Shown: piece by piece, positions 1,730 to 32,030 of the stretch | Position numbering within the stretch: the first letter of the stretch is position 1 | Layout: each line of letters opens with the position of its first letter | From: Patescibacteria group bacterium | GTDB taxonomy: Bacteria; Patescibacteriota; Patescibacteriia; PEXW01 | Length of the DNA stretch: 39,201 nt | Direction of reading: 5' to 3' | Assembly: GCA_041665345.1 (NCBI GenBank) | Contig: JBAYJA010000003.1 | Span: 1 to 39,201, forward strand | Made by a program: the position numbers and the translations under genes | The notes under the pieces: model-generated | What the model was told of the DNA's origin: nothing | Seen by the model: only the letters and a program-made list of their open reading frames with translations | Databases searched by the model: none

Positions 1730-1775
1730 GGTAAGGCGTAAAGCCATAAAACAGTAAAGCTATAGAGGTCTTTTT

Positions 1776-1870
1776 CTTGTCATCCTGAGTCATACGAAGG
1801 ATCTTGCTTTTCGTATGAAACCAGCAGCAGGATCCTTCGTCGCAGACTCCTCAGGATGACAGAAAAGGAA
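1776..1870. repeat. imperfect palindromic ~95-bp structured element, copy 1
   Basis: Perfect 12-bp outer stem TGTCATCCTGAG(1779-1790)/CTCAGGATGACA(1850-1861) enclosing inner stems CGAAGGATC/GATCCTTCG and TCATACGA/TCGTATGA. Left arm nearly identical to the element at 16423-16520. Confidence 0.6.
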
Positions 1871-1886
1871 ACTTGGATCCCACCCT

Positions 1887-2874: not shown

Positions 2875-4278
2875 ATGGATGATTTCAAAAAACGCATGGT
2901 ATTGCTTGGCGGTCTCCTAGGCCTTGTCATCGTGCTCATTATTGGCTACCAAATCTTTCAACGCTCACGAACCGGGGCAGTAGATTGCTCTTCGTCACCG
3001 GTGAAGCGAGTGGAGCTTTCCTGGTGGGGACACCTGGGTGAGGATCAAGCTCAAGCGTTCATTAACGCATACACCAGCCGCCGGCCCTACGTTACCATTA
3101 CCTACCGCAAATTGAGCGAGACGGACAGTGACCAGCAACTCATTGAGGCCTGGGCACGCGGAACCGGTCCGGACATCTACAGCGTGAAGAATGAGCAACT
3201 ACGGTACTTCACCGCATCAGGTTTGGTGACTCCCATGCCTGCCACCACCACCAGCTACACGTACACGGTGAAAAAAGTCTGGGGCATTAAAGAGGAGTTG
3301 AGCGTGTGCAAGCAAACCAAACCTCTGCCAACGTTAGAGTCATTGAAGAGCACCTTCGTTGCTGGAGCCGTGGAAGATATGGCGAAGAACGGGCAAATTG
3401 TTGGCTACCCGCTGAACTTCGACAGCGTGGCTATGTTCTACAACCAGAAGATGCTTGATGATGCGGGCATCCTCACCCCGCCCAGAACGTGGGTAGACTT
3501 TGCGGAGAAGGTGGTACCCAAGCTCACCCTGGAAGATGCGAGCGGCAATCTCACTCGTTCCGGTGCGGCCATGGGTCGGGGGACGAACGTGCTTCGGAAC
3601 CCGGAAATCGTCGCTGGGCTGCTCCAGCAGTACAATGTGCCACTGACTGATGCAACGGGCACGCAAGTGGCCTTTGGCAGCGGTACCAATGCACAAGCCG
3701 TCCTCACCTTGGCAGCAAGCTTCGGTATGCCCACCAAACGAAATTACAGCTGGAACGCCACTTTCCCTGAATCACTTGAGGCTCTGGCACAGGGCAAAGC
3801 CGCCGTGGCCTTTGGCACGCGTGAAGACTACCAAAAAGTGGTAAACCAAACCACCGGCACGGATATCCGCGTGGCTCCCTTCCCCCAAGCTGCTGCCAAC
3901 GGCACCACGTACGTGGCCAACTACTGGCTGGAAACAGTTGCCCGCGCTGCCAAAGACCCAAATGTGGCCTGGGACTTCCTCCGCACGATCGCTGACCCAA
4001 CGCAAGCAAAAATCATCACCGATACGGACACTCCGGCTGCCCGAACTTTAGTGCAGACTGCACGAGGCACAGAAGAGGAGAATCTCTCCATTGCCCAGGT
4101 CTTCGCGCGCCAAGCTGCAACTGCAAAGCCGTGGTACACGGGTGTCAATGCAACCAAGGGCCGCGAGGCGCTGAACACGCTCATTGACACTATTGGCGAT
4201 CAGAAGGAACCAATTGCCCAAGCAATTGAACGCGCCCAAGCACTCTTCCAAATCTCGCTGCGTATACCTGGCCGATGA
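2875..4278 (+). CDS. extracellular solute-binding protein (ABC transporter SBP family 1-like) with N-terminal membrane anchor
   Basis: N-terminal hydrophobic helix LLGGLLGLVIVLIIGY followed by a ~430-aa soluble domain with sugar-SBP-like composition (many aromatic/Gly/Thr residues, GYPLNFDSVAMFYNQKML). No permease or ATPase gene is adjacent. Confidence 0.65.
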   Translation: MDDFKKRMVLLGGLLGLVIVLIIGYQIFQRSRTGAVDCSSSPVKRVELSWWGHLGEDQAQAFINAYTSRRPYVTITYRKLSETDSDQQLIEAWARGTGPDIYSVKNEQLRYFTASGLVTPMPATTTSYTYTVKKVWGIKEELSVCKQTKPLPTLESLKSTFVAGAVEDMAKNGQIVGYPLNFDSVAMFYNQKMLDDAGILTPPRTWVDFAEKVVPKLTLEDASGNLTRSGAAMGRGTNVLRNPEIVAGLLQQYNVPLTDATGTQVAFGSGTNAQAVLTLAASFGMPTKRNYSWNATFPESLEALAQGKAAVAFGTREDYQKVVNQTTGTDIRVAPFPQAAANGTTYVANYWLETVARAAKDPNVAWDFLRTIADPTQAKIITDTDTPAARTLVQTARGTEEENLSIAQVFARQAATAKPWYTGVNATKGREALNTLIDTIGDQKEPIAQAIERAQALFQISLRIPGR

Positions 4279-5072
4279 AACGTTTTCTTCTCACTCTTAC
4301 AATTGCACTGAGCGCACTGCTTGTCTTTCCGGCTACAAGCAATGCGGCCAACCTCCCCCCAATTATTCCTGGGTGTGACCAAACCCAGTACACCGTATCA
4401 GGCACCAATGGAAATAAGGAAACGATCCCCCCTGGAACAATCATCGATTCGTCGCTGTACGGCACGGACGCATTCCCCTTAACGACCGTAACGGTTACTG
4501 GCTACTCGCTGAGTCGTGACTGCCAACTCACAGACTTCTTACAAGTGTTCATCAACCTCTACTCCTGGGGCTTGTACATCATCTCGGTTCTGGCACTGGT
4601 CTTCATGTTCGTGGGCGGTGGGACGTTGCTCTTTGCCGCTGGCAGTGAAGAGCGAGTACGCACAGGGAAAACAGTGCTAAAAAATACCATACTTGGTCTC
4701 CTGATTGCCCTGAGTAGTTGGATCATTGTGAACTTGGCGCTCGTCGCTATTCTCCCGGACACGGAAGAAAATCGCAAAGACGGCGTTGCGCATATCATTA
4801 AGAACCAACCATGGTTCAAGGTGGAAAATGATGCGCCCGCGTGTCAACCGAATGTTTCTCCAACCTATGGTTGCAAAAGCCAAACGGTGCGCGACTACCA
4901 AACAAAGCTTTCCAGCAAGCGTTGCTTCCCAAGTCCAAATGGAGAAAATATCACCAGTATTTTTGACAACAACACCATGGCTGCGTGGCTGAATTTACAA
5001 GGGGTAAACAAGGTGGTTCCGCCAACCAACCGATTAGAAGATCCGGATAATTACTCCGTCTCCTGCTTGTAA
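4275..5072 (+). CDS. pilin-like membrane protein (TrbC/VirB2-type T4SS pilin-like core) with signal peptide and Cys-containing C-terminal extension
   Basis: Signal peptide (...PATSNA); core of two TM helices flanking GGGTLLFAAGSEERVRTGKTVLKN, resembling the two downstream small pilin-like ORFs; start overlaps the SBP stop by 4 nt (ATGA). Confidence 0.55.
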   Translation: MKRFLLTLTIALSALLVFPATSNAANLPPIIPGCDQTQYTVSGTNGNKETIPPGTIIDSSLYGTDAFPLTTVTVTGYSLSRDCQLTDFLQVFINLYSWGLYIISVLALVFMFVGGGTLLFAAGSEERVRTGKTVLKNTILGLLIALSSWIIVNLALVAILPDTEENRKDGVAHIIKNQPWFKVENDAPACQPNVSPTYGCKSQTVRDYQTKLSSKRCFPSPNGENITSIFDNNTMAAWLNLQGVNKVVPPTNRLEDPDNYSVSCL

Positions 5073-5094
5073 TTTTTTTAACTACCTTCAGCGT

Positions 5095-5427
5095 ATGCGC
5101 ATCCTACAATCTCTTAAACTCAGTCTCATCGCCTTCGCCCTGCCCCTCACCACACGCGCGGCAGAATTGACCAATCCCTTAGGCGTGGATGACGCCAAGG
5201 AGTTCGTGGTTCGCGTGCTCCGCTACTCCTTGGGCCTTTTGGGTGTGGTCGCGCTCATTATGATCCTCTACGGTGGTTTCCTCATGCTCACGTCCGCGGG
5301 GAGCGCAGACCAAATTAAGAAAGCGAAAGGAACCATCATCTGGGCTGCAGTTGGCATTGCGGTCATTCTGCTCAGCTGGACTATCCTCCAGTATATTTTC
5401 CAAACTTTGAACGAGGTGGCAAGCTAA
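5095..5427 (+). CDS. TrbC/VirB2-like (T4SS-type) pilin-like protein, paralog 2
   Basis: 110 aa. Signal peptide, then motif LLGVVALIMILYGGFLMLTSAGSADQIKKAKGTIIWAAVGIAVILLSW (two TM helices with a short basic loop), typical of VirB2/TrbC-family pilins abundant in CPR genomes. Confidence 0.65.
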   Translation: MRILQSLKLSLIAFALPLTTRAAELTNPLGVDDAKEFVVRVLRYSLGLLGVVALIMILYGGFLMLTSAGSADQIKKAKGTIIWAAVGIAVILLSWTILQYIFQTLNEVAS

Positions 5428-5537
5428 ATTCCTGGACGAAAGAGCTTGTAAAGTGGTATAGTAGCGCTGCTCTCGTCAATGTGCTGACCAAAGGAACATT
5501 CAAGTACCTGTATTAATCGAAAGGGGGTGCAAGTAAA

Positions 5538-5894
5538 ATGAAACTCAACCGCAAACTTTTGGCAGGCGCCATCTCCGTCGGCGTCCTCGCCCTTCCCTTC
5601 GCTGCTTCAGCTATAACGATTGAAAACGTCGGTGGCACGCTGACCCTCGGTTCCGCTGATTTGAAGCAGACTGTCCTGAACATTATTACCTTTGTCTTGG
5701 GCCTCCTCGGGCTCATCGCCGTCATCATGATTCTCTACGGCGGCTTCATCTGGCTCACGGCCGGTGGCAACGAAGACAAAGTGTCTTCTGCAAAACGGAT
5801 TATCTCCTCAGCCATCGTTGGCTTGGTAGTCATCCTGATCTCCTGGGCAATCGTGAACTTCGTCGTGAAGAGCACGGTCAACGTTACCGCCTAG
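5538..5894 (+). CDS. TrbC/VirB2-like (T4SS-type) pilin-like protein, paralog 3
   Basis: 118 aa. Signal peptide; LLGLIAVIMILYGGFIWLTAGGNEDKVSSAKRIISSAIVGLVVILISW is clearly paralogous to 5095..5427. SD AAGGGGGTG precedes the ATG. Confidence 0.65.
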   Translation: MKLNRKLLAGAISVGVLALPFAASAITIENVGGTLTLGSADLKQTVLNIITFVLGLLGLIAVIMILYGGFIWLTAGGNEDKVSSAKRIISSAIVGLVVILISWAIVNFVVKSTVNVTA

Positions 5895-5923: not shown

Positions 5924-5950
5924 CCGTTCCACACCCGTGGGACGGTTTTG
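5924..5950 (+). terminator. rho-independent terminator after the pilin-like gene triplet
   Basis: Stem CCGTTCC(5924-5930)/GGGACGG(5939-5945) with one G-U pair, 8-nt loop, TTTT 5946-5949. Confidence 0.45.
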
Positions 5951-6030
5951 GGATAAAGGAAAAAATAGGGTTTTGGTGTAGCGGCGAGTGGAGTTCATGG
6001 GTGGGGGTGGGGAAGTGTTTTATTAGTCAG

Positions 6031-6114
6031 CCATACCCTCTACCCATACCTTCCTACTATACTCGCTGCCACACCCAAACCTTCTACCTCTCCAATACGG
6101 TATACTACCCGCAT
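6031..6114 (+). promoter_or_regulatory. conserved C-rich upstream element, copy A (shared promoter/leader module abutting an ATG with no SD)
   Basis: ...CCTCTACCCATACC...ATACTCGCTGCCACACCCAAACCTTCTACCTCTCCAATACGGTATACTACCCGCAT|ATG. Near-identical element in inverted orientation at 14943-15035 and a shorter copy at 31035-31097. Contains TATACT (-10-like) 8 nt before the ATG. Confidence 0.6.
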
Positions 6115-8019
6115 ATGCGCACCCGTATCGCTCTCTCCTTCCTTGGTCTTATTGGACTTGCTGTGCTTTGCTGGACGCTCCTGTTAGCAAACGCAAAACT
6201 CCACGCTGGCGTAACGAATGCACTGGATCTTGGTATTTACACCCAGGTGGCATGGCTATCTGGACATGGACATATTTTTGGTTTTACCATCCACCCCCAC
6301 CTCTACCTGGGTGACCATGTTGAATTTTTGTTCGTACTTGCTGCTCTCCCCTTCCGGCTGTTCCCCTGGCCTCTGACACTCGTTGCGCTGCAAGGATTGG
6401 CAGTCGTGGGTGCAGCATTTGCGCTCTACACCTTCTGCTTGCGTGTGGGATTAGCTACCAAGAGTAGCTTGGTTTGGGCAAGCATTTTCCTTCTCAACCC
6501 CTTCACGCTCAACGCGCTTGTTTTCGAGTTCCACGCATTGCTCTTTGCATTACCGTTCGTCTTTCTCGCAGCAATTGCCTACCAGAAAAAAACCTACAAT
6601 ACTTTTTGGCTATGGTTAATCGTCGTCCTCCTTGCGCGGGAAGATGCCAGCATTTTTGTGGCTAGCTTTGCCGTGCTGGGTCTGCTGGAGCGTCGCTCAC
6701 TCCGCTGGTGGCTGTGGCCAGGAATCGTTGCGGTCCTTTGGTTCTTTGGTACCTCACTACTCGCCGGGGCAATCAACGGTGAAGGGTACAAATTCCTGAG
6801 CCTGCTTTCGGGCGAGAGCAGCGCTGGTGGGTCACTTCGTAATATTCTGTTAGTGTTCAACCTTGGCAATGTCCTAGTGCTCATTGCGCTCCTCATAGGA
6901 ATGGTTGGCCTGCCTCTGCTCGCCTGGCGCTGGGCAGTGACGCTGCTCGTACCGTTCTTCGCCCTTGGTTTGGCTGGGTTGCAGGGAGGAGACCTGATTC
7001 TCCAAACCCACTACGCCGTGTTCTTCTTACCTATGCTGTTCTGCAGTGCGGTACTTGGGTGGCACTCCTTCACCTCCCGCCCTCCAAGCTGGGCACATAC
7101 CCTGGGTGAACACCTGCGTCCACTCAGTTGGATAACGCTCGGCGTCGTTTCGGTGTACGGTCTACTAACCTTCGGCCCAACCATTGGGGCAATCCAAGCC
7201 TGGCGAGCTATCACCCCGGCGCAGCAGGCCAAAGGCGCGGCAATGCAAAGTTTGCGCAATGCAACTGCCCCATCCGCGAGCGTCCTGGCTGGCTATGGCA
7301 CGCTGCCGCTGTTCAGCGCAAGGGCGAATATCTACGCCAGCCACTACGCTTTCCTGGGCAAACGGCAGTACAGTGATCAAGACTATCCCCTACCCAGCAA
7401 ACTTGACCTGGCTGTGCTGGATGCTGAAGACTTTGTCACCTACCAAGTCCAGTTTGCAAAAAAACCTTCCCGTGCCACTGACTACCTGACTGGCGTCAAA
7501 CGCTTTACCGACCTGCTTGCCGCACACCAGCTCCGGCTCACCAGCATTGATGACACGCTGCTGACGTTTACCACCCAGGGAACTGACCTCTTCCCACAGG
7601 TGGTAACGCAACGCACACGCGAGCCACTCAGCGGGGTGGAATTCCTCATCCAAACGCCCGCGCCTGCAATCCAAATCGCGGATGGCAAAACAACCCTACC
7701 CATCATCGCCCAAGTTGGAAACCCCTCACTAGCAAATCTCCAACTTGAACTTCGCTGGTTCAATGCTTCTCACCAGCTGCTGGAAACCCGCTACCTGCCG
7801 CTCGGGTACGGATTGTACCCAACTTCTGCCTGGAAAAATACTGACGAAATAACCACCAACTTCACACTCGTGGTCCCAGATGAAGCCGCCTCTGGCGAAC
7901 TGCGGGCGATCATCCCCAGCGGCCACCTGGCTCTCAATGGTTGGCGTGCAGCTGAAGTCAAACTCGACAAAGATACCCAGCAGATTGGTTTGCCAGTAAC
8001 GGTGGAGGTAGAACGTTAA
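6115..8019 (+). CDS. polytopic membrane protein, DUF2079-like (putative membrane glycosyltransferase) with C-terminal extracytoplasmic domain
   Basis: About 10 predicted TM helices in the first ~330 aa; ALDLGIYTQVAW...HPHLYLGDHVEF loop motif reminiscent of DUF2079; C-terminal ~300 aa soluble. The 5' part of the ORF-track call (6001-6114) is the noncoding conserved element. Confidence 0.55.
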   Translation: MRTRIALSFLGLIGLAVLCWTLLLANAKLHAGVTNALDLGIYTQVAWLSGHGHIFGFTIHPHLYLGDHVEFLFVLAALPFRLFPWPLTLVALQGLAVVGAAFALYTFCLRVGLATKSSLVWASIFLLNPFTLNALVFEFHALLFALPFVFLAAIAYQKKTYNTFWLWLIVVLLAREDASIFVASFAVLGLLERRSLRWWLWPGIVAVLWFFGTSLLAGAINGEGYKFLSLLSGESSAGGSLRNILLVFNLGNVLVLIALLIGMVGLPLLAWRWAVTLLVPFFALGLAGLQGGDLILQTHYAVFFLPMLFCSAVLGWHSFTSRPPSWAHTLGEHLRPLSWITLGVVSVYGLLTFGPTIGAIQAWRAITPAQQAKGAAMQSLRNATAPSASVLAGYGTLPLFSARANIYASHYAFLGKRQYSDQDYPLPSKLDLAVLDAEDFVTYQVQFAKKPSRATDYLTGVKRFTDLLAAHQLRLTSIDDTLLTFTTQGTDLFPQVVTQRTREPLSGVEFLIQTPAPAIQIADGKTTLPIIAQVGNPSLANLQLELRWFNASHQLLETRYLPLGYGLYPTSAWKNTDEITTNFTLVVPDEAASGELRAIIPSGHLALNGWRAAEVKLDKDTQQIGLPVTVEVER

Positions 8020-12731: not shown

Positions 12732-13343
12732 CTACCGCTTCTCCAGCAGCAACATGGTCCACGGGATGGGCTGCTTGCCCCGGCGAACAACGAATGATTG
12801 CCCAACGAATCGTCGGAAACCCCACGGGGTCCAGTGGTTGATGTGCCCGGGGGTGTTCCCCCACCCTTTGAGGTACGTTCCCCGTGCCATGTTCATCACT
12901 CGCCACAGCGGCTCATGGGGTACGCTGATGATCGCCCACTTCTTGGTGACTCTAGCGAGTTCAGCCAAGGCTTTTTCTGGCTGCTCCAGGTGCTCCAGTA
13001 CTTCCAGCGCAAAAACCAAATCCACTGAGGCGTCAGGCCGGTTGAGAGCAAAAATGGATTCCACGCTGCAGGTTGCGCTGGGTACCCGCGCTTGGGTTGC
13101 TGTCACCAATTCTGGGGTGATGTCCGATGCTTGCAAGTCAACGTCAGGCAAGAAATGCCGAATGTGCTCGGTGGAAAAGCCTTCACCGCAGCCGACCTCC
13201 AACACACTCTTTAGATCGTTTGGTAATAGTCCCTGCAAAGTTTTGAAAAACCCGCGGAGGAAGTGCCGCATGATTGGGTTCTTAGATTCGTACTTCCCGC
13301 GGAAATCATCCTCCGGCCGATTGATGGGTGGTTGGTATGGCAT
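12732..13343 (-). CDS. class I SAM-dependent methyltransferase
   Basis: Motif I VLEVGCGEGFST, acidic residue after beta-2 (ASDIT), motif IV-like LVFALEVLEHL; 203 aa. Confidence 0.8.
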   Translation of the reverse strand: MPYQPPINRPEDDFRGKYESKNPIMRHFLRGFFKTLQGLLPNDLKSVLEVGCGEGFSTEHIRHFLPDVDLQASDITPELVTATQARVPSATCSVESIFALNRPDASVDLVFALEVLEHLEQPEKALAELARVTKKWAIISVPHEPLWRVMNMARGTYLKGWGNTPGHINHWTPWGFRRFVGQSFVVRRGKQPIPWTMLLLEKR

Positions 13344-13352
13344 ATCCGTACC

Positions 13353-14942
13353 TTACTCTGGATTCTGCCAAGAGTAAATCCACACCTCAGCATCTTCGTA
13401 CGCCAGTTCCACACCCGGCGTCACGCGAACATTCTCGTACATCTCCCGATGATCTTTTTCCACAAAAATCCACTTCGTATTAAAGAGGTCAAAGGCTTCA
13501 GCCAGGTTGTCCTTTTTCTGGCCCAGGGTGGTCTGCGCCCAGGCCCAGTAGCGGGTGACATCTTGGCGGTAGAGGAAGGTTGGATCCAGACCGGCGATGT
13601 ACGCGTTTACCGTGTTGTAGTAGAACAGCACGGGAAAATCATCCCAGTCACTGTGGAAGACCACGTCGCCAGGTTTGGAATGCTCTGCCATCCAGGTGGC
13701 CGAGGCTTGAAAGTGAGTAGCATTTACTCCCGAAGAAAGGTTCTGCACATTGGTGCGCTGATCCCGCGCAACCACGTATGGCACGCTGACCACAATGTAC
13801 AGCGCGAGTAGCCCCACCACAATTTTTCGACGCTGCCACTGCTGCCACACGCTCTCCCAGATGTGTCGCCAATCGCTGGTTTTCAGCACATCACCCAGCG
13901 TCACTGCTGCAGCCAAAGCAATGAACGGCACGGCATACTCCACGTACCGCCTAGACTTTAAGGTGACAACGCTGAAGAGCAGTGCGAGGAGCACCAGGGT
14001 CCACCCTTTGGCCGTCGTTCGTCGCAGGTGCACAATGGCCAGCACCAGCGCCAGTAGGAACGGAATGATGACCACCACATTATTCCCAATGAACTCGGTG
14101 AAGCCGTACGGATACCACTCCCCGCCCACGCCAATGACATTTCGGTAGTTCACCACGCCAATTTGGATAACCTGCTCCCACAGAAAATGAAAAGTGTTTG
14201 GGAAAAAAGGGTTTGCCACCATGCCCACCCCGGCGCCAGCCAAAACGCAGCCAAAGACCTGCAGCGGTCGGTAGTGCAGAAATCCCTGCCAGGTCCACCA
14301 GGGTTTCCTCCCCGCTTCCGCTGCTTCCCGTGCCCAATGCCGTACCAGGTCAACGACTGCGTACGCAAGCAATGACAGCCCGGCTGCCGCAATGAGCACC
14401 AGAAAACCGCCGTAGAGCAAGACGAAGAACCACGCCAGAAAAAATGTCAGCCACCGCTTCCCCCGGAAGATGCACCACAGACCAATGAGGAGTGTGGCCA
14501 GAGACAAGCTGGGCGCTTTGGCCAAACTCATCCGAAAGGTGAACGGCGTTGCGGCCAATAGCACTGCTGCCCAAATCCAGGCGTGGCGTACCCCAAAACT
14601 GCGAACAAACCACACCGCAACTGTCAGTAAGAGCGATGCAAAAACTACGGTCGCCAGTTTGATACCAGCCAGTGGATCCATGAGCCGCACAAAGGGAACC
14701 AGCGCAACATGATACAACCAGTGCTGGTCAATGTAGTGCTCGCCCAGCGTGGTGAAGGGCAACCAGGGCAATTCTCGCACCGCACCCTGCTGGCTGGTCA
14801 GCACCGCGATCCGCGCATGGTAGAAGGAGTCAGGATCGGCAAAGACCGCGCTCCGTTGCATCAGGAAAAAAGCAACGAAGCTCACCACAAACGTACCTAG
14901 GAGCATGAGGAGCGTCGTGTGGCTCCGCCAGTGAATAGTCAT
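13353..14942 (-). CDS. polytopic membrane protein, ArnT/PMT-like GT-C glycosyltransferase candidate
   Basis: 530 aa from ATG 14942 (the ORF-track start 15122 includes the noncoding conserved element). First loop FADPDSFYHARIA resembles the PDE.RYAEI loop motif of ArnT/PMT_2-type GT-C enzymes. About 12 TM helices, C-terminal soluble domain. Confidence 0.5.
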   Translation of the reverse strand: MTIHWRSHTTLLMLLGTFVVSFVAFFLMQRSAVFADPDSFYHARIAVLTSQQGAVRELPWLPFTTLGEHYIDQHWLYHVALVPFVRLMDPLAGIKLATVVFASLLLTVAVWFVRSFGVRHAWIWAAVLLAATPFTFRMSLAKAPSLSLATLLIGLWCIFRGKRWLTFFLAWFFVLLYGGFLVLIAAAGLSLLAYAVVDLVRHWAREAAEAGRKPWWTWQGFLHYRPLQVFGCVLAGAGVGMVANPFFPNTFHFLWEQVIQIGVVNYRNVIGVGGEWYPYGFTEFIGNNVVVIIPFLLALVLAIVHLRRTTAKGWTLVLLALLFSVVTLKSRRYVEYAVPFIALAAAVTLGDVLKTSDWRHIWESVWQQWQRRKIVVGLLALYIVVSVPYVVARDQRTNVQNLSSGVNATHFQASATWMAEHSKPGDVVFHSDWDDFPVLFYYNTVNAYIAGLDPTFLYRQDVTRYWAWAQTTLGQKKDNLAEAFDLFNTKWIFVEKDHREMYENVRVTPGVELAYEDAEVWIYSWQNPE

Positions 14943-15035
14943 GTAGGAAGTATACCGTATTGGAGGGGTGGAGGGTTTGGGTGTGGCAGCGAGTATGGTT
15001 AGAGGGTGGCGGTTTAGGATGGGTAGAGGTACGAG
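14943..15035 (-). promoter_or_regulatory. conserved C-rich upstream element, copy B (inverted relative to copy A)
   Basis: Minus-strand reading: ...CCTCTACCCATCC...CCATACTCGCTGCCACACCCAAACCCTCCACCCCTCCAATACGGTATACTTCCTAC|ATG. About 85% identical to copy A over about 70 nt; abuts ATG 14942 with no SD. Confidence 0.6.
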
Positions 15036-15204
15036 TGAAATACAATACTCCTCCCCTCCTTTCGAAGGAGCCGTCTGCGGCGGGTGCGAGCGAGCACAGC
15101 ACCTTAGGTAGGGGGAGGTCACCCTTACCGAGAAAACAAAATCACGCAGAATAAAAGTCTGGAAAAAACAAAAACATATTCTACTTCCTTCTTCTCAATC
15201 CCCT

Positions 15205-15258
15205 CTCCATTCGTAATTCGTATATTCGTAGCATCTTTTCGTAATTCGTAACCGTATA
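15205..15258. repeat. five direct ATTCGTA(A/T/G) heptamer repeats
   Basis: CCATTCGTAATTCGTATATTCGTAGCATCTTTTCGTAATTCGTAACC; same heptamer as at 1887-1906. Lies between the PGI terminator and the element upstream of the membrane gene. Confidence 0.4.
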
Positions 15259-15321: not shown

Positions 15322-16380
15322 TTACCCGAGCTTTTTCTTAAAGTAATGCACCCAGTTAATTGTGGCAGGGTTAATATGATTGCGCAAGCCCAAGGCCAAG
15401 GTCAACGCTCCACCAAATGCCACTGCCGCAACTGCTTGCGAAAACCGTGTCTGCCCCGGCACTCGGAAGCTGGCAACTTTCGCAGCGTTTTTCAGCACAA
15501 CCTCGCTCGTCAACCGGAAACGCTTCTGAATGCGAGGATGGTACAGCCCTGAAGTGAGGAAGAGAAACGTCGTTTTCCGGGTATTCACCTTGGGATTGGC
15601 CAGGCCTTCCATGAGGTGGTGATTCAATTCCGGAATGGCAAAGTAGGTAGCCAGAGCTTTAGCGGTTTCATTCAGTTGATTCGCCAGGACATGCGCCGAA
15701 CCAAGAGTGTGCTCTGCACCTATCACAAAGATTTGCCGGTTGAGCAACGTGGCGGTTAAGGTAGCCACAGGATTGCCTAGCTTCCGCAAATCAAGCTGCT
15801 TTGCATACCGTTCAAGGTCACGAATGGCTTGTTCAACTACGGGTAAAGGCAAAGTGATGAGCCCGGATTTGGAAAGCAGACCCAGCAAACCAAATATCCC
15901 ATACCCTAAGCCAAGCCTGGGTTGATCAGACGGGTTTTCTCTGGGGGTAAAGATGTACGCTGGGATATTCCCACGCTTTGCCGCGCGTCCCAACGCCCCG
16001 CCCGTGGCTTGAATTAGGATCTTCGCACCTCGCTGCTGGGCGACCTTCAGTGCGGCCAGGGTTTCTTCCGTCGTACCAGAGTAGCTGGAGAGGACAACCA
16101 ACGTCCGCTTCCCTACCCAAGCAGGCAAATGGTAATCATTCACAATCACAATTGGCACGCGCAAATACTCAGCGCAAGCTGTCTGCAGCATGTGCGCGCC
16201 CAAAGCGCTGCCACCCATGGCGGCAACCACAATCGCATCAACTTTTCCCTTCAATGAGGAGATTTTCAAGCGACGTACTTCTATCCACGCCTGCCTTGCT
16301 TGTGCGCCAAAACGCAGTACTGACCCATGGACATCCTGGGGATCGTACTGCTGCAGCAGTCGAGTGAAAGAGACTGGCAT
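15322..16380 (-). CDS. SIS-domain phosphoglucose/phosphomannose isomerase (bifunctional PGI/PMI-like)
   Basis: 352 aa; two SIS-like Rossmann segments (VVAAMGGSALGAHML and LVVLSSYSGTTEET), size and layout typical of archaeal/bacterial bifunctional PGI/PMI. Confidence 0.6.
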   Translation of the reverse strand: MPVSFTRLLQQYDPQDVHGSVLRFGAQARQAWIEVRRLKISSLKGKVDAIVVAAMGGSALGAHMLQTACAEYLRVPIVIVNDYHLPAWVGKRTLVVLSSYSGTTEETLAALKVAQQRGAKILIQATGGALGRAAKRGNIPAYIFTPRENPSDQPRLGLGYGIFGLLGLLSKSGLITLPLPVVEQAIRDLERYAKQLDLRKLGNPVATLTATLLNRQIFVIGAEHTLGSAHVLANQLNETAKALATYFAIPELNHHLMEGLANPKVNTRKTTFLFLTSGLYHPRIQKRFRLTSEVVLKNAAKVASFRVPGQTRFSQAVAAVAFGGALTLALGLRNHINPATINWVHYFKKKLG

Positions 16381-16422
16381 ATCCGTACCCTAGCGCGTGG
16401 CGGAGAAGCTGTAAAGTCGCGA

Positions 16423-16520
16423 AGGCCTTTTTCTGTCATCCTGAATCAGATGAAGGATCCCCAGACTATGGATAAACTTCGGAGATTCTTCGTTAGACTC
16501 AGAATGACAATGAGGAGGAG
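16423..16520. repeat. imperfect palindromic ~95-bp structured element, copy 2
   Basis: GGCCTTTTTCTGTCATCCTGAATCAGATGAAGGATCC...CTTCGTTAGACTCAGAATGACAATGAGGAGG. Left arm is about 85-90% identical to 1771-1804; outer stem TGTCATCCTGAATC/GACTCAGAATGACA (12/14 paired). Confidence 0.6.
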
Positions 16521-16647: not shown

Positions 16648-19600
16648 ATGGAAATCAAGTCAAAATTTCACTTTTTTCGTCAGAACAACTTCACCTACCT
16701 GGACAGCGCCGCCACAACCCAAGTACCGGATGCGGTGACGCGTGTGGTGGAGCAGTCTTTGCAGTACAAAGGCAACCCGAATCGTAGTGCGCACGCCGTA
16801 GCGGAAAAAAATGAACAGGCGTTGCAAGCCGCCCGGGAGAATATTGCCGGCTTCATTGGCGCCACGGCAGAGGAACTCATCTTCACAAATAACACTACGG
16901 ACAGTATCAACCTTGCGGTGGATGGTATTGCCGACCATGTAAAGCCTGGTGACGAAATTGTCATCGCCGTGTCTGAACATCACTCCAACATGCTGCCCTA
17001 CACCAAGCTGGTAAAGCGTGGGGCGAAAATCCGCATCGTAGGCATCAAAGACGGCGTGGTCAATCCAAACGATGTGCAGAAAGCGCTTACGCCCAAAACC
17101 CGTATCGTGGCCGTGGGACACTGCTCCAATGTCCTCGGGAACATCAACGACGTGGTAGCTATTGGCAAACTCGTTAAAAACCACGACAAGAAAATCTTCT
17201 TCATTGTGGATGGCGCGCAAGCCGTGGCGCACATCCCAGTAGACGTCCAGGCAATGCAGGCGGACTTCTACGCGTTCTCGGGCCACAAAATGTACGGGCC
17301 AGATGGCGTAGGTGGATTGTACATTGCCCGAAAAATCCACCACCTGCTCACTCCGACACGTATGGGTGGCGGCACCGTGCAGAATGTGGCCATCACCTTT
17401 GATAAAACTGGTGATATCATCTCCCCTGACTACTTCCCGTCGCTCATCACGTTGGAAGGTGGCACGCCAAACCTGTCCAACATTCTCGGCCTTTCTCGCG
17501 CCGTCAACTTCATTCGTTCTATTGGCTTCCCAGATATTCAGGCACACGAACGCGGGCTGCTAAAACGTTTGCTGGATGGGTTGGCGACAATTCCTGGGGT
17601 GCAGGTCTTTGGTCCCACCGACCTCCAACAAAAAATTGGCGTCCTCTCTTTTGGTTTGCAAGACACGAACACCAAAGAACTCGGCGAACACCTTGGTCGC
17701 CAAAAGATCTGCATTCGCTACGGCGCACATTGTGCCTTCCCGCTAGCGGAAAAGCTGGGCCAAGAAACCCTGCGCATTAGTCTGGGCGTGTACAACACCG
17801 AAGAAGACATTGACCACGTGCTCAACGAAATGCGATTCTTCTTCGATAAGAAACAAGGGCGCATTACCAACCCCAACCTGGAGCCCCTGCGCAACAAGCT
17901 CTACTACCGCAGCACCCATGTGGTGAATTCCTATGCTGCCCTGGCCGAAAAGCTGCAGCAATCCCTCTACGGCCCACAGGATACGGAAATTATTGTCATG
18001 GGTGGCCACTTCTTGGGCATACCAGACATGCAGGAAAACCGCTTCTGGCCCAGCATTGCAACCATGGTACCCGAGCGCCTGCACGGCCTCATGGATGAGT
18101 TTGGCATGACGAGCTTTCCGCTTTTCACGTGGCGCTTGGCTTGTCGGACGGTTGCGGATTTGAAAGCGCACGGATACCAAGCAAAACTGGCAATTATTGC
18201 CAATGACACAACGGGAATGAATGAACTTCGTAACTCTGAAGCCAACACAACAAAGAAAACCGCTGAGCAATACCGAACTGAGTTACTAGATACTTTTCAA
18301 GAAGACGGTCATTTACCAAATCGCTATAGTGAAATTCTCAAAGAGCACGGATTGCATAAGCGAGATATTCTCAAGAATGGTGACAAATTCGTATTTCAAG
18401 AAACCTTACTCCGAGCCAACTTCAAAAAATTTGTTGATGGTAATAAAAATTTCTTTGATGGCATCATTGCCTACACAAAAAAGGCAGAGGAGAATATCGA
18501 CTTATCAATTAAACTCCTCGATAATCAGGAAATTGCTTCCTGCACGTTTAATACATTTCAATCAAAAACTGGTGGGAAGTTTTGCATTGTTGAATTGTGT
18601 CAATTTATTGCCGAACTCTTTGGTAAACCAGAACTGATTACATTCCCCTATGTATCACAGCGCGTACTGAAACCAAAGGTGACAGCAAATCACAAGATTC
18701 TTTTTGCAATCACGCCCGCGATGTGCGACAACGCTGTGACGCGATCCGCGGAACTCTACACCAAGCTTTTCCTCCAGGAGCAGAGTAAAGGATCATTTAA
18801 ATTCTTCAACTTGCCCCTAGGCCCAAATGCTGAGCGCAGCTTAGCTATGGGCGCAGAACTCAAGTATGTCTCAGACAAAGACAATCTTGAGGTACTTGAT
18901 ATTGAGCATGAGCCCGCATTTCCAGATCTCTGGCGCTTGGCTGAGTACAAGCTCATCTACAATGCTCCTGCCTATGTAACTGAAATGACCGCGCTTTTTG
19001 CGAAGCTGGGCCTCACCAAGAAATCCGCACTGCTGGATACCTGTGTGGGTCCAGGCTTCTTTGCCACTGAGCTGTTGCGGCAAGGTTACAATCTGCATAC
19101 CGCAGACAAGAGTGAAACCATGATGGCACCATTCCGCGCAACCCTGAAAGAGCTTGGTATCAACCACCAGCCCACAGTGAGCACGTGGCTTGATTTGCCA
19201 AAACACTTCGAGGCAAATTCCATGGATATGCTCTTCAACCGTGGGAACACCTTCATCTACGCGGCAGGCGGCTGGCATGAGCGAATCACCGTGGACCGAG
19301 AAAAATCTTTGGCGAAATATTTAGAGACGTTACGCGTCTACTACAGCCTTCTCAAGCCAGGTGGCTACCTCTACGTAGATAAATTCCGTGATGCAGAAAT
19401 CCCAGATAAAAAAGTTGTTGCTCGGCTGTACATTCAGGAGCCTGCGCAGCAAAAAGACGTAGTCTTCTACGTCGAACGCAAACCAGAAGATCACATTCGC
19501 TTTGCGCAAATGCTCTTGCGCGACACCCAAGGCAAAGAGACTGGATTACCAAACATGGCCTATGACTTGAGCGTAGAAGAAATGGAAATGTTGCTACAGA

Positions 19601-19677: not shown

Positions 19678-19685
19678 ACCCAACC

Positions 19686-20531: not shown

Positions 20532-20565
20532 GTTCGCGGATTGAACGCAGGACGCACTTTTTCAC

Positions 20566-20594
20566 TTGACCTTCACATATTTTTTTAGTATAGT
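20566..20594 (+). promoter_or_regulatory. sigma70-like promoter TTGACC-17 nt-TATAGT upstream of yebC
   Basis: Hexamers at 20566-20571 and 20589-20594 with 17-nt spacer; ATG 20627. Confidence 0.45.
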
Positions 20595-20626
20595 CATCAT
20601 ACTTCCAGGGGGATTTTTTCTGTTGT

Positions 20627-23943: not shown

Positions 23944-23945
23944 GC

Positions 23946-24686: not shown

Positions 24687-24691
24687 GGCAG

Positions 24692-25585: not shown

Positions 25586-25646
25586 CTGGCGCTTGATTGC
25601 CAAAGGCGTGGCCGAAGTGTACGAACGAATGGTGGAGAAAAAATAA
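25576..25646 (+). pseudogene. relic 3'-end fragment of an SPS-like GT4 gene (duplicate of 23034-23098)
   Basis: CACCTGTAGCTGGCGCTTGATTGCCAAAGGCGTGGCCGAAGTGTACGAACGAATGGTGGAG...TAA is about 80% identical to the last about 65 nt of the GT4 at 21839..23098 (..SWRLIAKGVAEVYERLVK*). It would encode SWRLIAKGVAEVYERMVEKK*. The epimerase stop TAG lies inside it. Confidence 0.6.
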
Positions 25647-25657
25647 CTTTACCGGCG

Positions 25658-26731: not shown

Positions 26732-26785
26732 GATATGGTGTAAGTAAGGTATACTACCAGTACTCTACCACTTACCTTTGCCCGT

Positions 26786-30922: not shown

Positions 30923-31034
30923 AACAAGGAACTCGGAACCGAGAACAGAGAACCAGAATGGGAAAAAGCAGGAGTGAACCTCCCCTCTGGTTCCAAGTTC
31001 ATTGTTCTCAGTTCAAAGTTCCCTTCCAAAGTAG

Positions 31035-31097
31035 CCATCCAACCATACCTTTCAACGATACTCGCTGCCACAACCAAACCCTCACCCCTTTGCAACT
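31035..31097 (+). promoter_or_regulatory. conserved C-rich upstream element, copy C (core only)
   Basis: CCATCCAACCATACCTTTCAACGATACTCGCTGCCACAACCAAACCCTCACCCCTTTGCAACT|ATG. Shares the ATACTCGCTGCCACA(C/A)CCAAACC(C/T)TC(T/C/A)ACC core with copies A and B but lacks the CCAATACGGTATACT proximal module; no SD. Confidence 0.5.
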
Positions 31098-32030
31098 ATG
31101 CCTGTCCGCTCACCTGAACTTCGGCTTGACCCCATCCACGATCGGGCAGTGGTCATTGCGCCAAAGCGGAACATCCGTCCGCACGATATTCCAGACCCCT
31201 ACGTCCGAACGGTTCGGCCGCAGCAGTGCCCATTTTGCCCAGAAAGCATTAAGGGGAAACACCCCACAGCGCACCTTGGCCGGGGAAAAAATCTGATTCG
31301 CGCCATTGCCAATGACTACCCAGCCGTGAGTTTGAAGACTCCCAAAGCCTACGGCTACCAGGAAGTCATCATTGACACCCCGGATCATGACGCGGACTTG
31401 GGCGAGCTGAGCGTGACGCAGCTTGATCACTTACTGAGTTTCTACCAGCTACGAACAAAAGCAATTGCCCGGATTCCCAACATTGAGTACATTCTCATTT
31501 TCAAAAATCACGGAGGCAAATCCGGCGCCAGCTTGGTGCACGCCCACTCGCAGGTGTTTGCCACGGGCTTTGTGCCGCCGCACATTGTGCTCAAACTCCA
31601 GAACGTTCGGCAATACAAGCTGGAGCACGGCCACTGCTACTACTGCAAGCTTCTGGCTGATGAGAAGAAGGGTCCCCGCCGCATTCTCAGCAACAAGTAC
31701 GTTACGGCGTTCGCGCCCTACGCCTCAGCCTACCCGTACGAAGTCTGGCTCTTCCCCAACCGGCACCTGGATAACTGTACTCGCCTGAGCTTGGTGGAGC
31801 GTCGGGCGTTTGCCGCTGCACTCCAATCGATCCTCAAGAAGCTCAACCTCATCCGCGCGTCGTACAACTACTACCTCCACCAGACCCTTACTGACCAGGA
31901 CGAACACTTCTACCTGCGCATCGCCCCGCGCGAGCAAACCTGGGGCGGGGTAGAAGTCGGCTCCCGTCTGGTCATCAACGGCGTGGCCCCTGAGGACGCG
32001 GCGAAGTTTTTCCGGAAAGGAATCCGCTAG
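31098..32030 (+). CDS. GalT-branch HIT-superfamily nucleotidyltransferase (galactose-1-phosphate uridylyltransferase / NDP-sugar phosphorylase-like)
   Basis: Zn-knuckle CPFCPE near the N-terminus and active-site HxHxQ (LVHAHSQVFA), typical of GalT (HPHGQ) and ADP-glucose phosphorylase relatives; 310 aa. Confidence 0.7.
   Translation: MPVRSPELRLDPIHDRAVVIAPKRNIRPHDIPDPYVRTVRPQQCPFCPESIKGKHPTAHLGRGKNLIRAIANDYPAVSLKTPKAYGYQEVIIDTPDHDADLGELSVTQLDHLLSFYQLRTKAIARIPNIEYILIFKNHGGKSGASLVHAHSQVFATGFVPPHIVLKLQNVRQYKLEHGHCYYCKLLADEKKGPRRILSNKYVTAFAPYASAYPYEVWLFPNRHLDNCTRLSLVERRAFAAALQSILKKLNLIRASYNYYLHQTLTDQDEHFYLRIAPREQTWGGVEVGSRLVINGVAPEDAAKFFRKGIR

What the first reader, a model, noticed from the sequence alone, without database searches (positions are those of the whole stretch)
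6031..6114. Conserved ~60-90-nt C-rich element sitting directly on the start codons of three glycan-related genes that lack a Shine-Dalgarno (putative shared leaderless promoter/regulon motif)
The same element occurs immediately upstream of ATG 6115 (DUF2079-like membrane protein, + strand), ATG 14942 (ArnT/PMT-like membrane protein, - strand) and ATG 31098 (GalT-like nucleotidyltransferase). The shared core is ATACTCGCTGCCACA(C/A)CCAAACC(C/T)TC(T/C/A)ACC. Copies A and B add CTCCAATACGGTATACT ending 8 nt before the ATG, which is a TATACT -10-like hexamer positioned for a leaderless transcript. None of the three genes has an SD, whereas most other genes in the window do (AGGAGGG, AAGGAAGTGAGG, AAGGGGGTG). 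Copies A and B are inverted relative to one another and drive convergent transcription into the 6.1-14.9 kb block of membrane-protein genes. The ORF track translated all three copies into the same spurious peptide (TRCHTQT...).
Basis: seen in the sequence. Interest (0 to 1): 0.8.

Follow-up and report, generated by a model that had tools for sequence, protein, structure and literature searches.

The report
Copied G-poor promoter-upstream module in Patescibacteria
A roughly 95-base, G-poor non-coding stretch has been copied in front of three unrelated sugar-coat genes in one small lineage of Patescibacteria; selection keeps it intact and it most likely acts as the upstream control region of leaderless promoters, an ordinary kind of element seen here partway through spreading.

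Summary
The repeat is real. Three sense copies end at start codons: A 6020-6114 (+), B 14943-15038 (-), C 31024-31094 (+). A fourth, inverted partial copy A' (5967-6008) forms a long palindrome with A. The element lies in three different reading frames relative to the three ATGs, so it is not coding, and it matches no Rfam family.

Only 1 of 30 window genes has a Shine-Dalgarno core, and 9 of 30 have a TAnnnT hexamer 6-8 nt before the ATG. Leaderless starts are the norm in this genome.

Comparative data:
- A sister genome R (81-94% protein identity) keeps A, A' and B.
- More distant syntenic relatives have only TA(T/C)ACT plus 6-7 nt plus ATG, without the C-rich element.
- Copy C is an insertion specific to the window genome. 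It sits in a GT4-GalT junction that is 2-5 nt long in three relatives.
- A and B are 82-88% identical between the two genomes, while four-fold sites are 36-57% identical. This indicates purifying selection.
- The four A/B copies share invariant CACACCCAAACC, an 11-nt variable spacer of fixed length, then invariant CAATACGGTATACT.

Best reading: a lineage-specific, propagated upstream regulatory module of leaderless promoters. The regulator, the transcription starts and the genome-wide distribution remain untested.

The parts
6020..6114 (+). Copy A of the G-poor module, ending at ATG 6115 of the DUF2079 gene
   Evidence: nhmmer E=1.3e-20. 7% G on the sense strand. 85% identical to the orthologous copy in sister genome R.
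6070..6081 (+). Invariant block CACACCCAAACC in copy A. It is followed by an 11-nt variable spacer of fixed length (6082-6092).
   Evidence: Identical in wA, rA, wB and rB; one mismatch in wC. The distance to TATACT is 19 nt in all four A/B copies.
6093..6106 (+). Invariant block CAATACGGTATACT in copy A. The -10-like TATACT is at 6101-6106, 8 nt before the ATG. The heptamer TATACTA also reads TAGTAT on the minus strand.
   Evidence: The symmetric -10 logic comes from PMC10268837.
5967..6008 (-). A': an inverted, partial, G-rich copy of the module
   Evidence: nhmmer E=0.005 in the window and 0.001 at the same place in R. Inverted repeat 5969-5994 / 6056-6081, 81% complementary. The A' side is 87% identical between W and R.
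5968..6082 (.). Long palindrome formed by A' and A. Either strand can fold into a stem of about 45 bp.
   Evidence: MFE -71 kcal/mol, z=-2.9. Both strands fold about equally well, in W and in R.
5960..5965 (-). A6 tract on the plus strand, which is a U-tract after the hairpin on the minus strand. Possible terminator for a divergent antisense transcript.
   Evidence: Read directly from the sequence. Conserved in R. The function is inferred only.
14943..15038 (-). Copy B, ending at ATG 14942 of the 529-aa membrane-protein gene that heads a five-gene minus-strand operon
   Evidence: nhmmer E=7.8e-22. 82% identical to the orthologous copy in R.
14974..14985 (-). Invariant block CACACCCAAACC in copy B
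14949..14954 (-). -10-like TATACT of copy B, 6 nt before the ATG. The predicted +1 is the A of the ATG.
   Evidence: The same TATACT plus 6 nt plus ATG is found in distant relative L015, which has no C-rich element.
31024..31094 (+). Copy C: truncated, lacking the CAATACGGTATACT block. Its core is 31058-31087 and its block CACAACCAAACC is 31069-31080.
   Evidence: nhmmer E=6.7e-12. It shares the 11-nt shorter form with copy A.
30923..31092 (+). About 170-nt insertion specific to the window genome, between the GT4 stop (30920-30922) and the ancestral CAACT-ATG of the GalT-like gene. It consists of a roughly 100-nt hairpin (30921-31022) followed by copy C.
   Evidence: The junction is TAA-CAACT-ATG in R (L017), 2 nt in L018 and 3 nt in L020/L021. 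Hairpin.
6115..8019 (+). Gene A, DUF2079 membrane protein. The true start is ATG 6115, not GTG 6001.
   Evidence: Pfam PF09852. NCBI aa, and most orthologues (30-57% identical) are about 630-640 aa long.
13353..14942 (-). Gene B, a 529-aa polytopic membrane protein with no assignable family
31098..32030 (+). Gene C, GalT-like / DUF4931 nucleotidyltransferase
   Evidence: Pfam PF01087 and PF16285.

Best explanation
The element is a non-coding, G-poor DNA module of about 95 nt, found only in the window genome (W) and one sister genome (R). It works at the DNA level as the upstream part of promoters, roughly -13 to -100 relative to the transcription start.

In copies A and B it sits directly upstream of, and includes, a TATACT -10 box that lies 6-8 nt from the ATG. 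These genes are therefore transcribed as leaderless mRNAs, as many genes in this genome appear to be. The module adds three things to that promoter: phased ACCCA(T/A)ACC-like repeats, an invariant CACACCCAAACC at about -43 to -32, and an invariant CAATACGG next to the -10. Together these most likely form the binding platform for a transcription regulator, or an unusual -35-region contact. That would couple expression of the DUF2079 gene with the convergent five-gene membrane glycosyltransferase-like operon.

The module has been propagated by copying promoter DNA. It was added to pre-existing leaderless promoters in the common ancestor of W and R. Later, in W only, a truncated A-type copy without the -10 was inserted into the 5-nt junction between a GT4 gene and the GalT-like gene.

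Shown here: repetition, orientation, non-coding status, lineage restriction, purifying selection, block-spacer-block architecture, and the insertion at C.

Inferred: promoter activity, leaderless starts, protein binding, co-regulation, and what copy C does. C could be an operator or roadblock, or a new internal start region using GATACT plus a G-free leader.
For: 1. Repeat and position.
- Three sense copies, each ending at a start codon and pointing into the gene, with 0 expected by chance.

2. Not coding.
- The element is in a different reading frame relative to each of the three ATGs, and C has an in-frame stop.

3. Leaderless context.
- 9 of 30 genes have TAnnnT ending 6-8 nt before the ATG, against 0.8 expected (P=5e-8).
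- Only 1 of 30 genes has an SD core.
- The distance matches the 6-8 nt reported for leaderless group C genomes (PMC6028130).
- Orthologues in distant relatives keep TACACT or TATACT plus 6-7 nt plus ATG without the element.

4. Selection.
- W versus R four-fold sites are 36-57% identical in 10 genes.
- Non-promoter intergenic DNA is 56-59% identical.
- The A region is 88% identical (145/164) and B is 82%. Two other promoter regions in these genomes (upstream of GT4 26786 and of YebC) are 80-91% identical.
- Paralogous copies are as similar to each other as orthologous ones (0.80-0.86), as expected if all are held to one functional consensus.

5. Architecture.
- CACACCCAAACC and CAATACGGTATACT are invariant in all four A/B copies. 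The 11 nt between them vary at 7 positions but never in length.
- The only large indel between copies is 11 nt, about one helical turn.
- ACCCAWACC-type repeats recur at 31 nt in A and C. By my count, the equivalent spacing in B is 42 nt.

6. Propagation.
- C is absent from R and from two outgroups, whose GT4-GalT junctions are 5, 2 and 3 nt.
- C shares the A-specific 11-nt deletion.

7. A-B meets the operational definition of a propagated promoter: more than 50 nt at 80% identity or higher, with non-homologous flanking CDSs (PMC3488235).
Against: - There are no transcription-start or expression data, and no regulator has been identified.
- No sigma-70-type -35/-10 pair is detectable in any copy.
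- Copy C has no -10 at the right distance from the invariant block, so it cannot work the same way as A and B.
- The strong depletion of G on the sense strand (6-8% against 25% overall) is more naturally an RNA-level property. Other leadered genes in the window also have G-poor, C-rich leaders.
- The inverted copy A' and its conserved A-tract are not explained by a simple one-directional promoter.
- Only about 57 kb of W and about 30 kb of R could be searched, so a regulon cannot be shown or excluded.
Confidence: 0.5

Rival explanations
1. RNA-level leader. The module is transcribed from a start inside or upstream of it, for example the (T/C/G)ATACT at the 5' end of the core. It then serves as a G-free, unstructured 5' region that allows SD-independent ribosome loading, or as a target for a C-rich-RNA-binding factor or a small RNA.
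For: - The sense strand is 6-8% G and cannot fold on its own.
- The genome almost lacks SDs, and other leadered genes have G-poor, C-rich leaders.
- Reduced structure around start codons is reported as the general feature of non-SD initiation (PMC5397173).
- Copy C must lie within a transcript, or contain its start, because the GalT-like gene has no other start signal. C keeps 29 of 30 core bases while its flanks have diverged.
Against: - A and B keep a -10 box at exact leaderless distance that is older than the element, so the element lies upstream of the likely start.
- Sequence-specific conservation of two blocks with a fixed-length variable spacer is not what a purely compositional leader predicts.
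- The internal (T/C/G)ATACT is lost in the R copy of B, where it reads TCCACT.
- No Rfam family matches.
Confidence: 0.17
2. Selfish or neutral small dispersed repeat (MITE-, REP- or REPIN-like) with no host function. It simply tends to land next to gene starts, and the A'/A pair is a REPIN-like doublet.
For: - C is a fresh insertion.
- A' and A form a long hairpin like a REP doublet.
- The same genome carries another palindromic intergenic repeat of about 95 nt in two copies, within 1765-1875 and 16421-16520.
- Nothing similar is found in the viral collection or the other collections searched.
Against: - There are no terminal inverted repeats and no target-site duplication at the C insertion.
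- There is no transposase or RAYT gene in the 57 kb examined.
- Copy number is very low, and there are no extra copies in 30 kb of R.
- A and B are conserved far above the neutral level across a divergence at which four-fold sites are near saturation.
- All three full copies have the same orientation and abut the ATG.
Confidence: 0.15
3. Antisense or small-RNA unit at A. The symmetric -10 (TATACTA / TAGTATA) also fires leftwards and produces a G-rich RNA of about 140 nt. This RNA folds into the A/A' hairpin and ends at the U-tract (5960-5965 on the minus strand). The hairpin either merely terminates divergent transcription before the pilin genes, or the RNA acts in trans on C-rich copies.
For: - The heptamer TATACTA gives reciprocal -11A and -7T on both strands, which is the configuration described for bidirectional promoters (PMC10268837).
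- The same heptamer is the only -10 candidate in the 57-nt spacer between divergent genes 25658-26728 (-) and 26786 (+).
- The hairpin plus A/T-tract is conserved at 87% in R.
- The minus strand folds as well as the plus strand.
Against: - It applies only to copy A. B and C have no inverted partner.
- There are no compensatory changes that favour one strand. Only two informative differences exist between W and R.
- There are no expression data.
- A stem of about 45 bp is far longer than a terminator needs.
Confidence: 0.1
4. Protein-coding N-terminal extension of the downstream genes, as one gene caller assumed for gene A (GTG 6001, 672 aa).
For: All three forward frames of the element are open. 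Prodigal-type calls in ENA and Logan use GTG 6001.
Against: - The element is in three different frames relative to the three ATGs, and C has an in-frame stop.
- Most orthologues of gene A (30-57% identical) are about 630-640 aa long, like the 634-aa product from ATG 6115. NCBI annotates 634 aa.
- A search with the peptide found nothing.
Confidence: 0.01

Closest known systems
Putative mobile promoters / promoter propagation (Matus-Garcia, Nijveen & van Passel 2012, PMC3488235)
   Same: Homologous non-coding DNA of 50-100 nt at 80% identity or more, lying immediately upstream of non-homologous genes with non-homologous upstream neighbours. Conservation runs up to a few nt before the start codon. 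There is no associated transposase. One copy (C) is seen as a recent gain relative to a sister genome.
   Different: That class is purely operational and says nothing about mechanism. Here there is additional evidence for purifying selection across species and for a block-spacer-block architecture. The A-C match is 49 nt, just under the 50-nt cut-off.
Leaderless promoters of GeneMarkS-2 'group C' genomes (Actinobacteria, Deinococcus; PMC6028130)
   Same: A Pribnow-type box 6-8 nt before the ATG of operon-first genes, with no SD. This applies to A, B and at least seven other genes in the window.
   Different: The organism is a Patescibacterium, not an actinobacterium. The C-rich upstream module is not part of that signature, and relatives with the same -10/ATG layout lack it. 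Copy C does not have the layout.
Activator-dependent promoters with a site overlapping the -35 region (class II type, e.g. CRP at -41.5; my own knowledge, not tested here)
   Same: There is no recognisable -35 hexamer. A conserved block is centred around -37 to -43 at a fixed distance from the -10.
   Different: The site is not palindromic, no regulator is known, and binding was not tested. This is a 'works like' analogy only.
REP / REPIN / BIME elements and promoter-carrying MITEs such as Neisseria Correia elements (my own knowledge; REPINs not looked up here)
   Same: Small intergenic repeats. The A'/A doublet forms a long hairpin. Insertion next to genes can change their expression.
   Different: There are no terminal inverted repeats or target duplication, only a handful of copies, and no RAYT or transposase in view. 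The copies are conserved between species at orthologous sites and always sense to the downstream gene.
Bidirectional promoters arising from -10 symmetry (PMC10268837; PMC12825309)
   Same: The TATACTA heptamer in A (and rA, rB) gives a TAnnnT on both strands.
   Different: Divergent transcription here is only predicted. Copy B in the window has TATACTT.

Membership tests
Putative mobile promoter (PMC3488235) | Two upstream regions align over more than 50 nt at 80% identity or higher, within about 150 nt of the start codon | tested here: met
   A-B: 78 nt at 81%. A-C: 49 nt at 84%, which is borderline.
Putative mobile promoter (PMC3488235) | Downstream CDSs are not homologous | tested here: met
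   DUF2079, an unassigned membrane protein and a GalT-like protein. A versus B by BLASTP: best E=0.07.
Putative mobile promoter (PMC3488235) | Upstream CDSs are not homologous | tested here: met
   T4SS_pilin-like, PGI/SIS and GT4.
Putative mobile promoter (PMC3488235) | Actual promoter activity | not testable with these tools
   Needs TSS mapping or reporter assays.
Leaderless promoter (GeneMarkS-2 group C type) | [quoted passage not shown] | tested here: met
   A: TATACT plus 8 nt. B: TATACT plus 6 nt. The same holds in R and in distant relatives. This applies to A and B only.
Leaderless promoter (GeneMarkS-2 group C type) | The same layout in copy C | tested here: not met
   No TAnnnT within 40 nt of ATG 31098. 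The CAATACGGTATACT block is missing.
Sigma-70 consensus promoter | TTGACA-like hexamer 16-18 nt upstream of the -10 | tested here: not met
   0 sites in all three regions. The genome does use such promoters elsewhere: TTGACC-17-TATAGT upstream of YebC.
MITE | Terminal inverted repeats and a target-site duplication flanking the insertion | tested here: not met
   The ends of the C insertion are not inverted repeats, and no duplication of the CAACT target is seen.
REP / REPIN | Inverted doublet forming a hairpin | tested here: inconclusive
   Present at A only. B and C are singlets.
REP / REPIN | Many copies per genome and a cognate RAYT gene | not testable with these tools
   Only about 57 kb of the genome was reachable. 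It holds 4 copies and no Y1-transposase domain.
Known cis-regulatory RNA (Rfam) | A match to a curated covariance model | tested here: not met
   No hit at gathering score. At E<=5 there are only far sub-threshold miRNA-precursor models, which reflect generic long hairpins. Nothing in the R locus either.
Structured RNA leader / riboswitch | A conserved secondary structure shared by the copies | tested here: not met
   The shared part is G-depleted and unpaired in the B and C folds. Only A pairs, and with the extra A' arm.
Coding sequence | A constant reading frame with the downstream gene | tested here: not met
   Three different frames, and an in-frame stop in C.

The most novel reading that the evidence does not exclude
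The A'/A palindrome is a gene for a G-rich antisense RNA of about 140 nt. It would start at the symmetric TATACTA -10 and end at the conserved U-tract. One of its arms is complementary to the C-rich module carried by other transcripts, for example the GalT leader created by insertion C. The module family would then be a small trans-acting RNA regulon for cell-surface glycan genes in a Patescibacterium, spreading by copying its target site.
Probability: 0.06. Interest if true: 0.7.

Novelty: new member of a known kind. Interest (0 to 1): 0.35.

Why it matters
Almost nothing is known experimentally about promoters and gene regulation in Patescibacteria (CPR). This locus offers three things.

1. 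Sequence evidence that leaderless, SD-free expression is the norm in one such lineage.
2. A concrete cis-element under selection in front of cell-envelope glycan genes. It could be used to find its regulator, for example by DNA pull-down or DAP-seq.
3. A dated example of regulatory DNA being copied. The element was gained at two promoters in the ancestor of two sister species, and later inserted into a tight operon junction in one of them.

It is useful as a handle for CPR transcription studies, but it is not a new kind of system.

Tried and rejected
Collection scans that found nothing useful:
- Core 21-mer against genome contigs: one hit in a Symploca MAG, in an unrelated phylum, which I take to be chance. 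The profile matches it only over the core, E=0.007.
- Two patterns against metagenome contigs: nothing.
- One pattern against viral contigs: nothing.
The source genome and its sister are evidently not in those collections, so genome-wide distribution could not be obtained.

Other attempts:
- I searched the protein database with the three-frame translations of the element, hoping to find copies swallowed by gene calls. 436 candidates were collected and none scored, so the search was wasted.
- Walking along the 176.6-kb contig was not possible, because only window proteins or search hits can be looked up. I gained 8.3 kb on the left and 9.4 kb on the right, with no further copies.
- Rfam at gathering and at permissive thresholds gave only noise.
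- Tandem Repeats Finder did not detect the internal repeats. They show only in the seed-6 repeat search.
- Sigma-70 consensus scans found nothing.
- Pfam at E<=1 and PDB sequence searches on gene B and the other unassigned membrane proteins found nothing.

Ideas considered by eye and dropped:
- A sigma-54 -24/-12 promoter on the opposite strand: TGGCAG is present but the GC at +10 is not.
- An ECF-type AAAC-N17-CG(G)T promoter: a suggestive resemblance only, with no way to test it.
- A G-quadruplex on the G-rich strand: the G-runs are not conserved between copies.

Covariation in the A'/A stem: there are only two informative differences between W and R, and they are symmetric between strands.

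Full report

Yes. The 30-nt core ATACTCGCTGCCACA(C/A)CCAAACC... occurs three times in 39 kb: at 6059-6088 (+), 14967-14996 (-) and 31058-31087 (+). None is expected in 100 dinucleotide-preserving shuffles. Ungapped extension gives 78 nt at 81% between A (6037-6114) and B (14941-15018), and 49 nt at 84% between A and C.

A profile built from the copies finds A, B and C at E = 1e-20, 8e-22 and 7e-12. It also finds a fourth, inverted partial copy, A', at 5967-6008 with E = 0.005. Nothing else turns up in the window, nor in 8.3 kb to its left or 9.4 kb to its right. The same copies appear in independent ENA, JGI and Logan assemblies.

Each full copy points into, and ends at, the start codon of a gene:
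- A: a DUF2079 membrane protein.
- B: a 529-aa polytopic membrane protein that heads a five-gene minus-strand operon.
- C: a GalT-like / DUF4931 nucleotidyltransferase.

I could not confirm that gene B is ArnT/PMT-like. It has no Pfam hit at E<=1 and no PDB sequence hit.

**2.

TATACT ends 8 nt before the ATG in A but 6 nt before it in B.

More importantly, lack of a Shine-Dalgarno sequence is not special to these genes. Only 1 of 30 window genes has GGAG, GAGG or AGGA at -18 to -4. In contrast, 9 of 30 genes have a TAnnnT hexamer ending 6-8 nt before the ATG, against 0.8 expected (binomial P = 5e-8). That is the signature of leaderless transcription described for GeneMarkS-2 'group C' genomes, where the Pribnow box lies 6-8 nt from gene starts (PMC6028130).

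The organism is a Patescibacterium. NCBI names the identical DUF2079 protein 'MAG: Patescibacteria group bacterium', and three T4SS_pilin-type genes lie next door.

**3. It is not coding and not a known RNA.**

All three forward frames of the element are open, which is why ORF tracks translate it. One gene caller even starts gene A at GTG 6001. However, the frame that runs into the ATG differs in A, B and C, and C has an in-frame stop.

Most orthologues of gene A (30-57% identical) are about 630-640 aa long, like the 634-aa product from ATG 6115, and NCBI annotates 634 aa.

Rfam gives nothing at gathering score. At E<=5 it gives only far sub-threshold miRNA-precursor models, which pick up generic long hairpins. 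The shared part has 6-8% G on the sense strand, against 25% in the window. It is unpaired in the folds of B and C.

**4. Comparative evidence.**

The window is part of ENA contig ERZ27249449:k141_524871, which is 176.6 kb long. Call the window genome W. A sister genome R (Logan SRR28495930_12487) has 81-95% protein identity in eight of ten orthologous pairs compared (57% and 64% in the other two), while four-fold degenerate sites are only 36-57% identical.

*Copies A and B are shared with R.* R carries the element at the orthologous A position, including the inverted A' arm, and at the B position.

*Distant relatives lack the element.* More distant but syntenic relatives (about 55% identity for DUF2079, 67-69% for the GalT-like protein) have no C-rich element. 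Upstream of the gene A orthologue there is just a terminator followed by TACACT, 6-7 nt and ATG (L013, L015). Upstream of the gene B orthologue there is TATACT, 6 nt and ATG (L015). So the leaderless -10/ATG layout is ancestral, and the C-rich module was added in the common ancestor of W and R.

*Copy C is younger still.* In R the GT4 stop codon and the GalT ATG are separated by CAACT only. In two outgroups the gap is 2 and 3 nt. W has about 170 extra nt there (30923-31092), made of a roughly 100-nt hairpin followed by copy C, then the ancestral CAACT-ATG. C shares with W's copy A an 11-nt shorter form that R's A copy and both B copies lack. C was therefore most likely derived from an A-type copy within the W lineage. 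No terminal inverted repeats or target duplication flank the insertion.

**5. Selection.**

Between W and R:

| Region | Identity |
|---|---|
| A region, A-tract to ATG, 165 nt including A' | 88% of aligned positions (145/164) |
| C-rich part of B | 82% |
| Non-promoter intergenic stretches | 56-59% |
| Four-fold degenerate sites | 36-57% |
| First 100 nt of gene A | 65% |
| Other promoter regions (TATACT upstream of 26786; TTGACC-17-TATAGT upstream of YebC) | 91% and 80% |

The element is thus conserved about as well as other promoter regions in these genomes, and far better than neutral DNA. Paralogous copies (A versus B, within or between genomes) are as similar to each other as orthologous ones, at 0.80-0.86. 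This is what one expects if all four are held to one functional consensus while free positions have saturated.

**6. Architecture.**

In the four A/B copies two blocks are invariant: CACACCCAAACC and CAATACGGTATACT. The 11 nt between them differ at 7 positions but never in length, so TATACT always begins 19 nt after the first block.

If the transcript starts at the ATG (B) or 2 nt before it (A), the first block lies at about -43 to -32. That is over and just upstream of where a -35 would be, yet no TTGACA-like hexamer is present.

Upstream, ACCCA(T/A)ACC-type motifs recur at 13- and 31-nt spacings in A and at a 31-nt spacing in C. By my count, the equivalent spacing in B is 42 nt. The one large indel among copies is 11 nt. 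These are near-integral numbers of helical turns.

Invariant blocks, fixed-length variable spacers and helical phasing are what a protein-bound promoter region shows. They are not what a compositional RNA leader or a decaying selfish repeat shows.

**7. The inverted copy at A.**

A' (5967-6008) pairs with A to give a long palindrome spanning 5968-6082 (MFE -71 kcal/mol, z = -2.9). It is retained in R. Either strand folds about equally well. The only two informative substitutions in the stem do not favour one strand.

On the minus strand the hairpin is followed by a conserved U-tract (5965-5960). The -10 heptamer TATACTA reads TAGTAT on the minus strand. This is the reciprocal -11A/-7T arrangement reported for bidirectional promoters (PMC10268837). 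The same heptamer is the only -10 candidate in the 57-nt spacer between the divergent genes at 25658-26728 (-) and 26786 (+).

It is therefore possible that a divergent transcript starts near 6095 and is stopped by the palindrome, or that the palindrome supplies a second, inverted set of binding sites. I cannot decide between these. B and C have no such partner.

**8. Most likely mechanism and its rivals.**

*Best explanation (about 0.5).* The element is a DNA-level, lineage-specific upstream regulatory module of leaderless promoters. It is most likely the binding platform of an unidentified regulator. It has been propagated from promoter to promoter, and in W a truncated copy landed in an operon junction. 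The A-B pair satisfies the operational definition of 'putative mobile promoters': more than 50 nt at 80% identity or higher, with non-homologous upstream and downstream CDSs (PMC3488235).

What copy C does is inferred only. It keeps 29 of 30 core bases while its flanks have diverged, but it lacks the -10 block. It could act as an operator or roadblock on read-through from the GT4 genes. Alternatively it could supply a new internal start (GATACT at 31057-31062) with a G-free, SD-less leader.

*Rivals.*
- An RNA-level G-free leader (about 0.17). This is favoured by the composition and by the fact that other leaders here are also G-poor. It is disfavoured by the ancestral leaderless layout and by the block-spacer-block conservation.
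- A selfish REP/MITE-like repeat (about 0.15). This is favoured by the insertion at C, by the hairpin at A, and by a second palindromic repeat family in this genome. It is disfavoured by cross-species conservation, low copy number, uniform orientation, and the absence of terminal inverted repeats, target duplication or a transposase.
- An antisense RNA or divergent-transcript terminator at A (about 0.1).
- Coding sequence: refuted.

**9. Limits.**

Only about 57 kb of W and about 30 kb of R could be examined. There are no transcription-start, expression or binding data. There are only two genomes with the element, which gives little power for covariation analysis.

**10. Verdict.**

This is a real, selected, non-coding element whose closest described kind is the propagated ('mobile') promoter region. 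Here it is attached to leaderless promoters in a Patescibacterium, and one propagation step can be dated between sister genomes. It is a new member of a known kind. It is moderately interesting as a handle on CPR transcription, but not a new type of system.

Noticed in passing
whole window; e.g. 1961, 12732-13343(-), 15322-16380(-), 34184: The genome almost lacks Shine-Dalgarno sequences: 1 of 30 genes has a core. 9 of 30 genes have TAnnnT ending 6-8 nt before the ATG (P=5e-8). This points to widespread leaderless transcription in this Patescibacteria lineage. TATACT-ACC recurs as the -10 and discriminator sequence (6101, 26757-region, 34172-region).
   Followed up: partly
window 26729-26785: A 57-nt spacer lies between divergent genes 25658-26728 (-, S6PP-like) and 26786 (+, GT4). 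It has a single symmetric GGTATACTACC, which reads TATACT on the top strand and TAGTAT on the bottom strand. It is 91% identical in the sister genome, and looks like a bidirectional promoter with G-poor, SD-less leaders.
   Followed up: partly
window 1765-1875 and 16421-16520: A second dispersed intergenic repeat, in two copies. It is a palindromic hairpin element of about 95 nt (TGTCATCCTGAGTCATACGAAGGATC ... GATCCTTCGT ... CTCAGGATGACAG). The copy at 16.4 kb has no counterpart in the sister genome's PGI-YebC spacer, so it looks like a lineage-specific REP/MITE-like element.
   Followed up: partly
window 16648-20531, 23176-26731, 32027-33949: Gene blocks present in the window genome but absent from the syntenic locus of the sister genome R:
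- a 1009-aa class-V aminotransferase / methyltransferase fusion plus a 281-aa ORF;
- GT2, methyltransferase, epimerase and S6PP-like genes;
- a 640-aa ORF with no family and low GC (about 46%, against about 55% in its neighbours).
The glycan locus is a hotspot of gene gain and loss.
   Followed up: no
window 15035-15205 and 15209-15230: The region upstream of copy B holds about 170 nt that the sister genome lacks. It includes a GGAGGGG/CCTCCCC hairpin and sits next to a short TACGAAT tandem repeat (period 7, 2.9 copies). The origin is unknown, and there is no other copy in the DNA examined.
   Followed up: partly
window 5928-5949: The intrinsic terminator of the third pilin-like gene (CCGTTCCAC...GTGGGACGG-TTTT) shows two compensatory stem changes relative to the sister genome (CCGTCCCGC...GCGGGGCGG). 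This serves as a positive control showing that real RNA stems do covary at this divergence.
   Followed up: partly
window 4275-5894: Three tandem genes with the T4SS_pilin domain (PF18895), preceded by a 467-aa ORF with no family. This is a typical Patescibacteria surface-appendage cluster immediately upstream of copy A.
   Followed up: no
L006 1589-2434 (about 6.6 kb left of window position 1); also L020 1887-2636: TrmB-family HTH regulator genes lie near or inside the glycan locus in this genome and in a relative. They are candidate regulators of the module but were not tested.
   Followed up: no
window 20560-20626: A canonical sigma-70-type promoter, TTGACC-17 nt-TATAGT, with a leader containing GGGGGA, lies upstream of the YebC/TACO1 gene. 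It is about 80% identical overall in the sister genome, with the core promoter nearly identical, so classical promoters coexist with the -35-less leaderless ones.
   Followed up: partly
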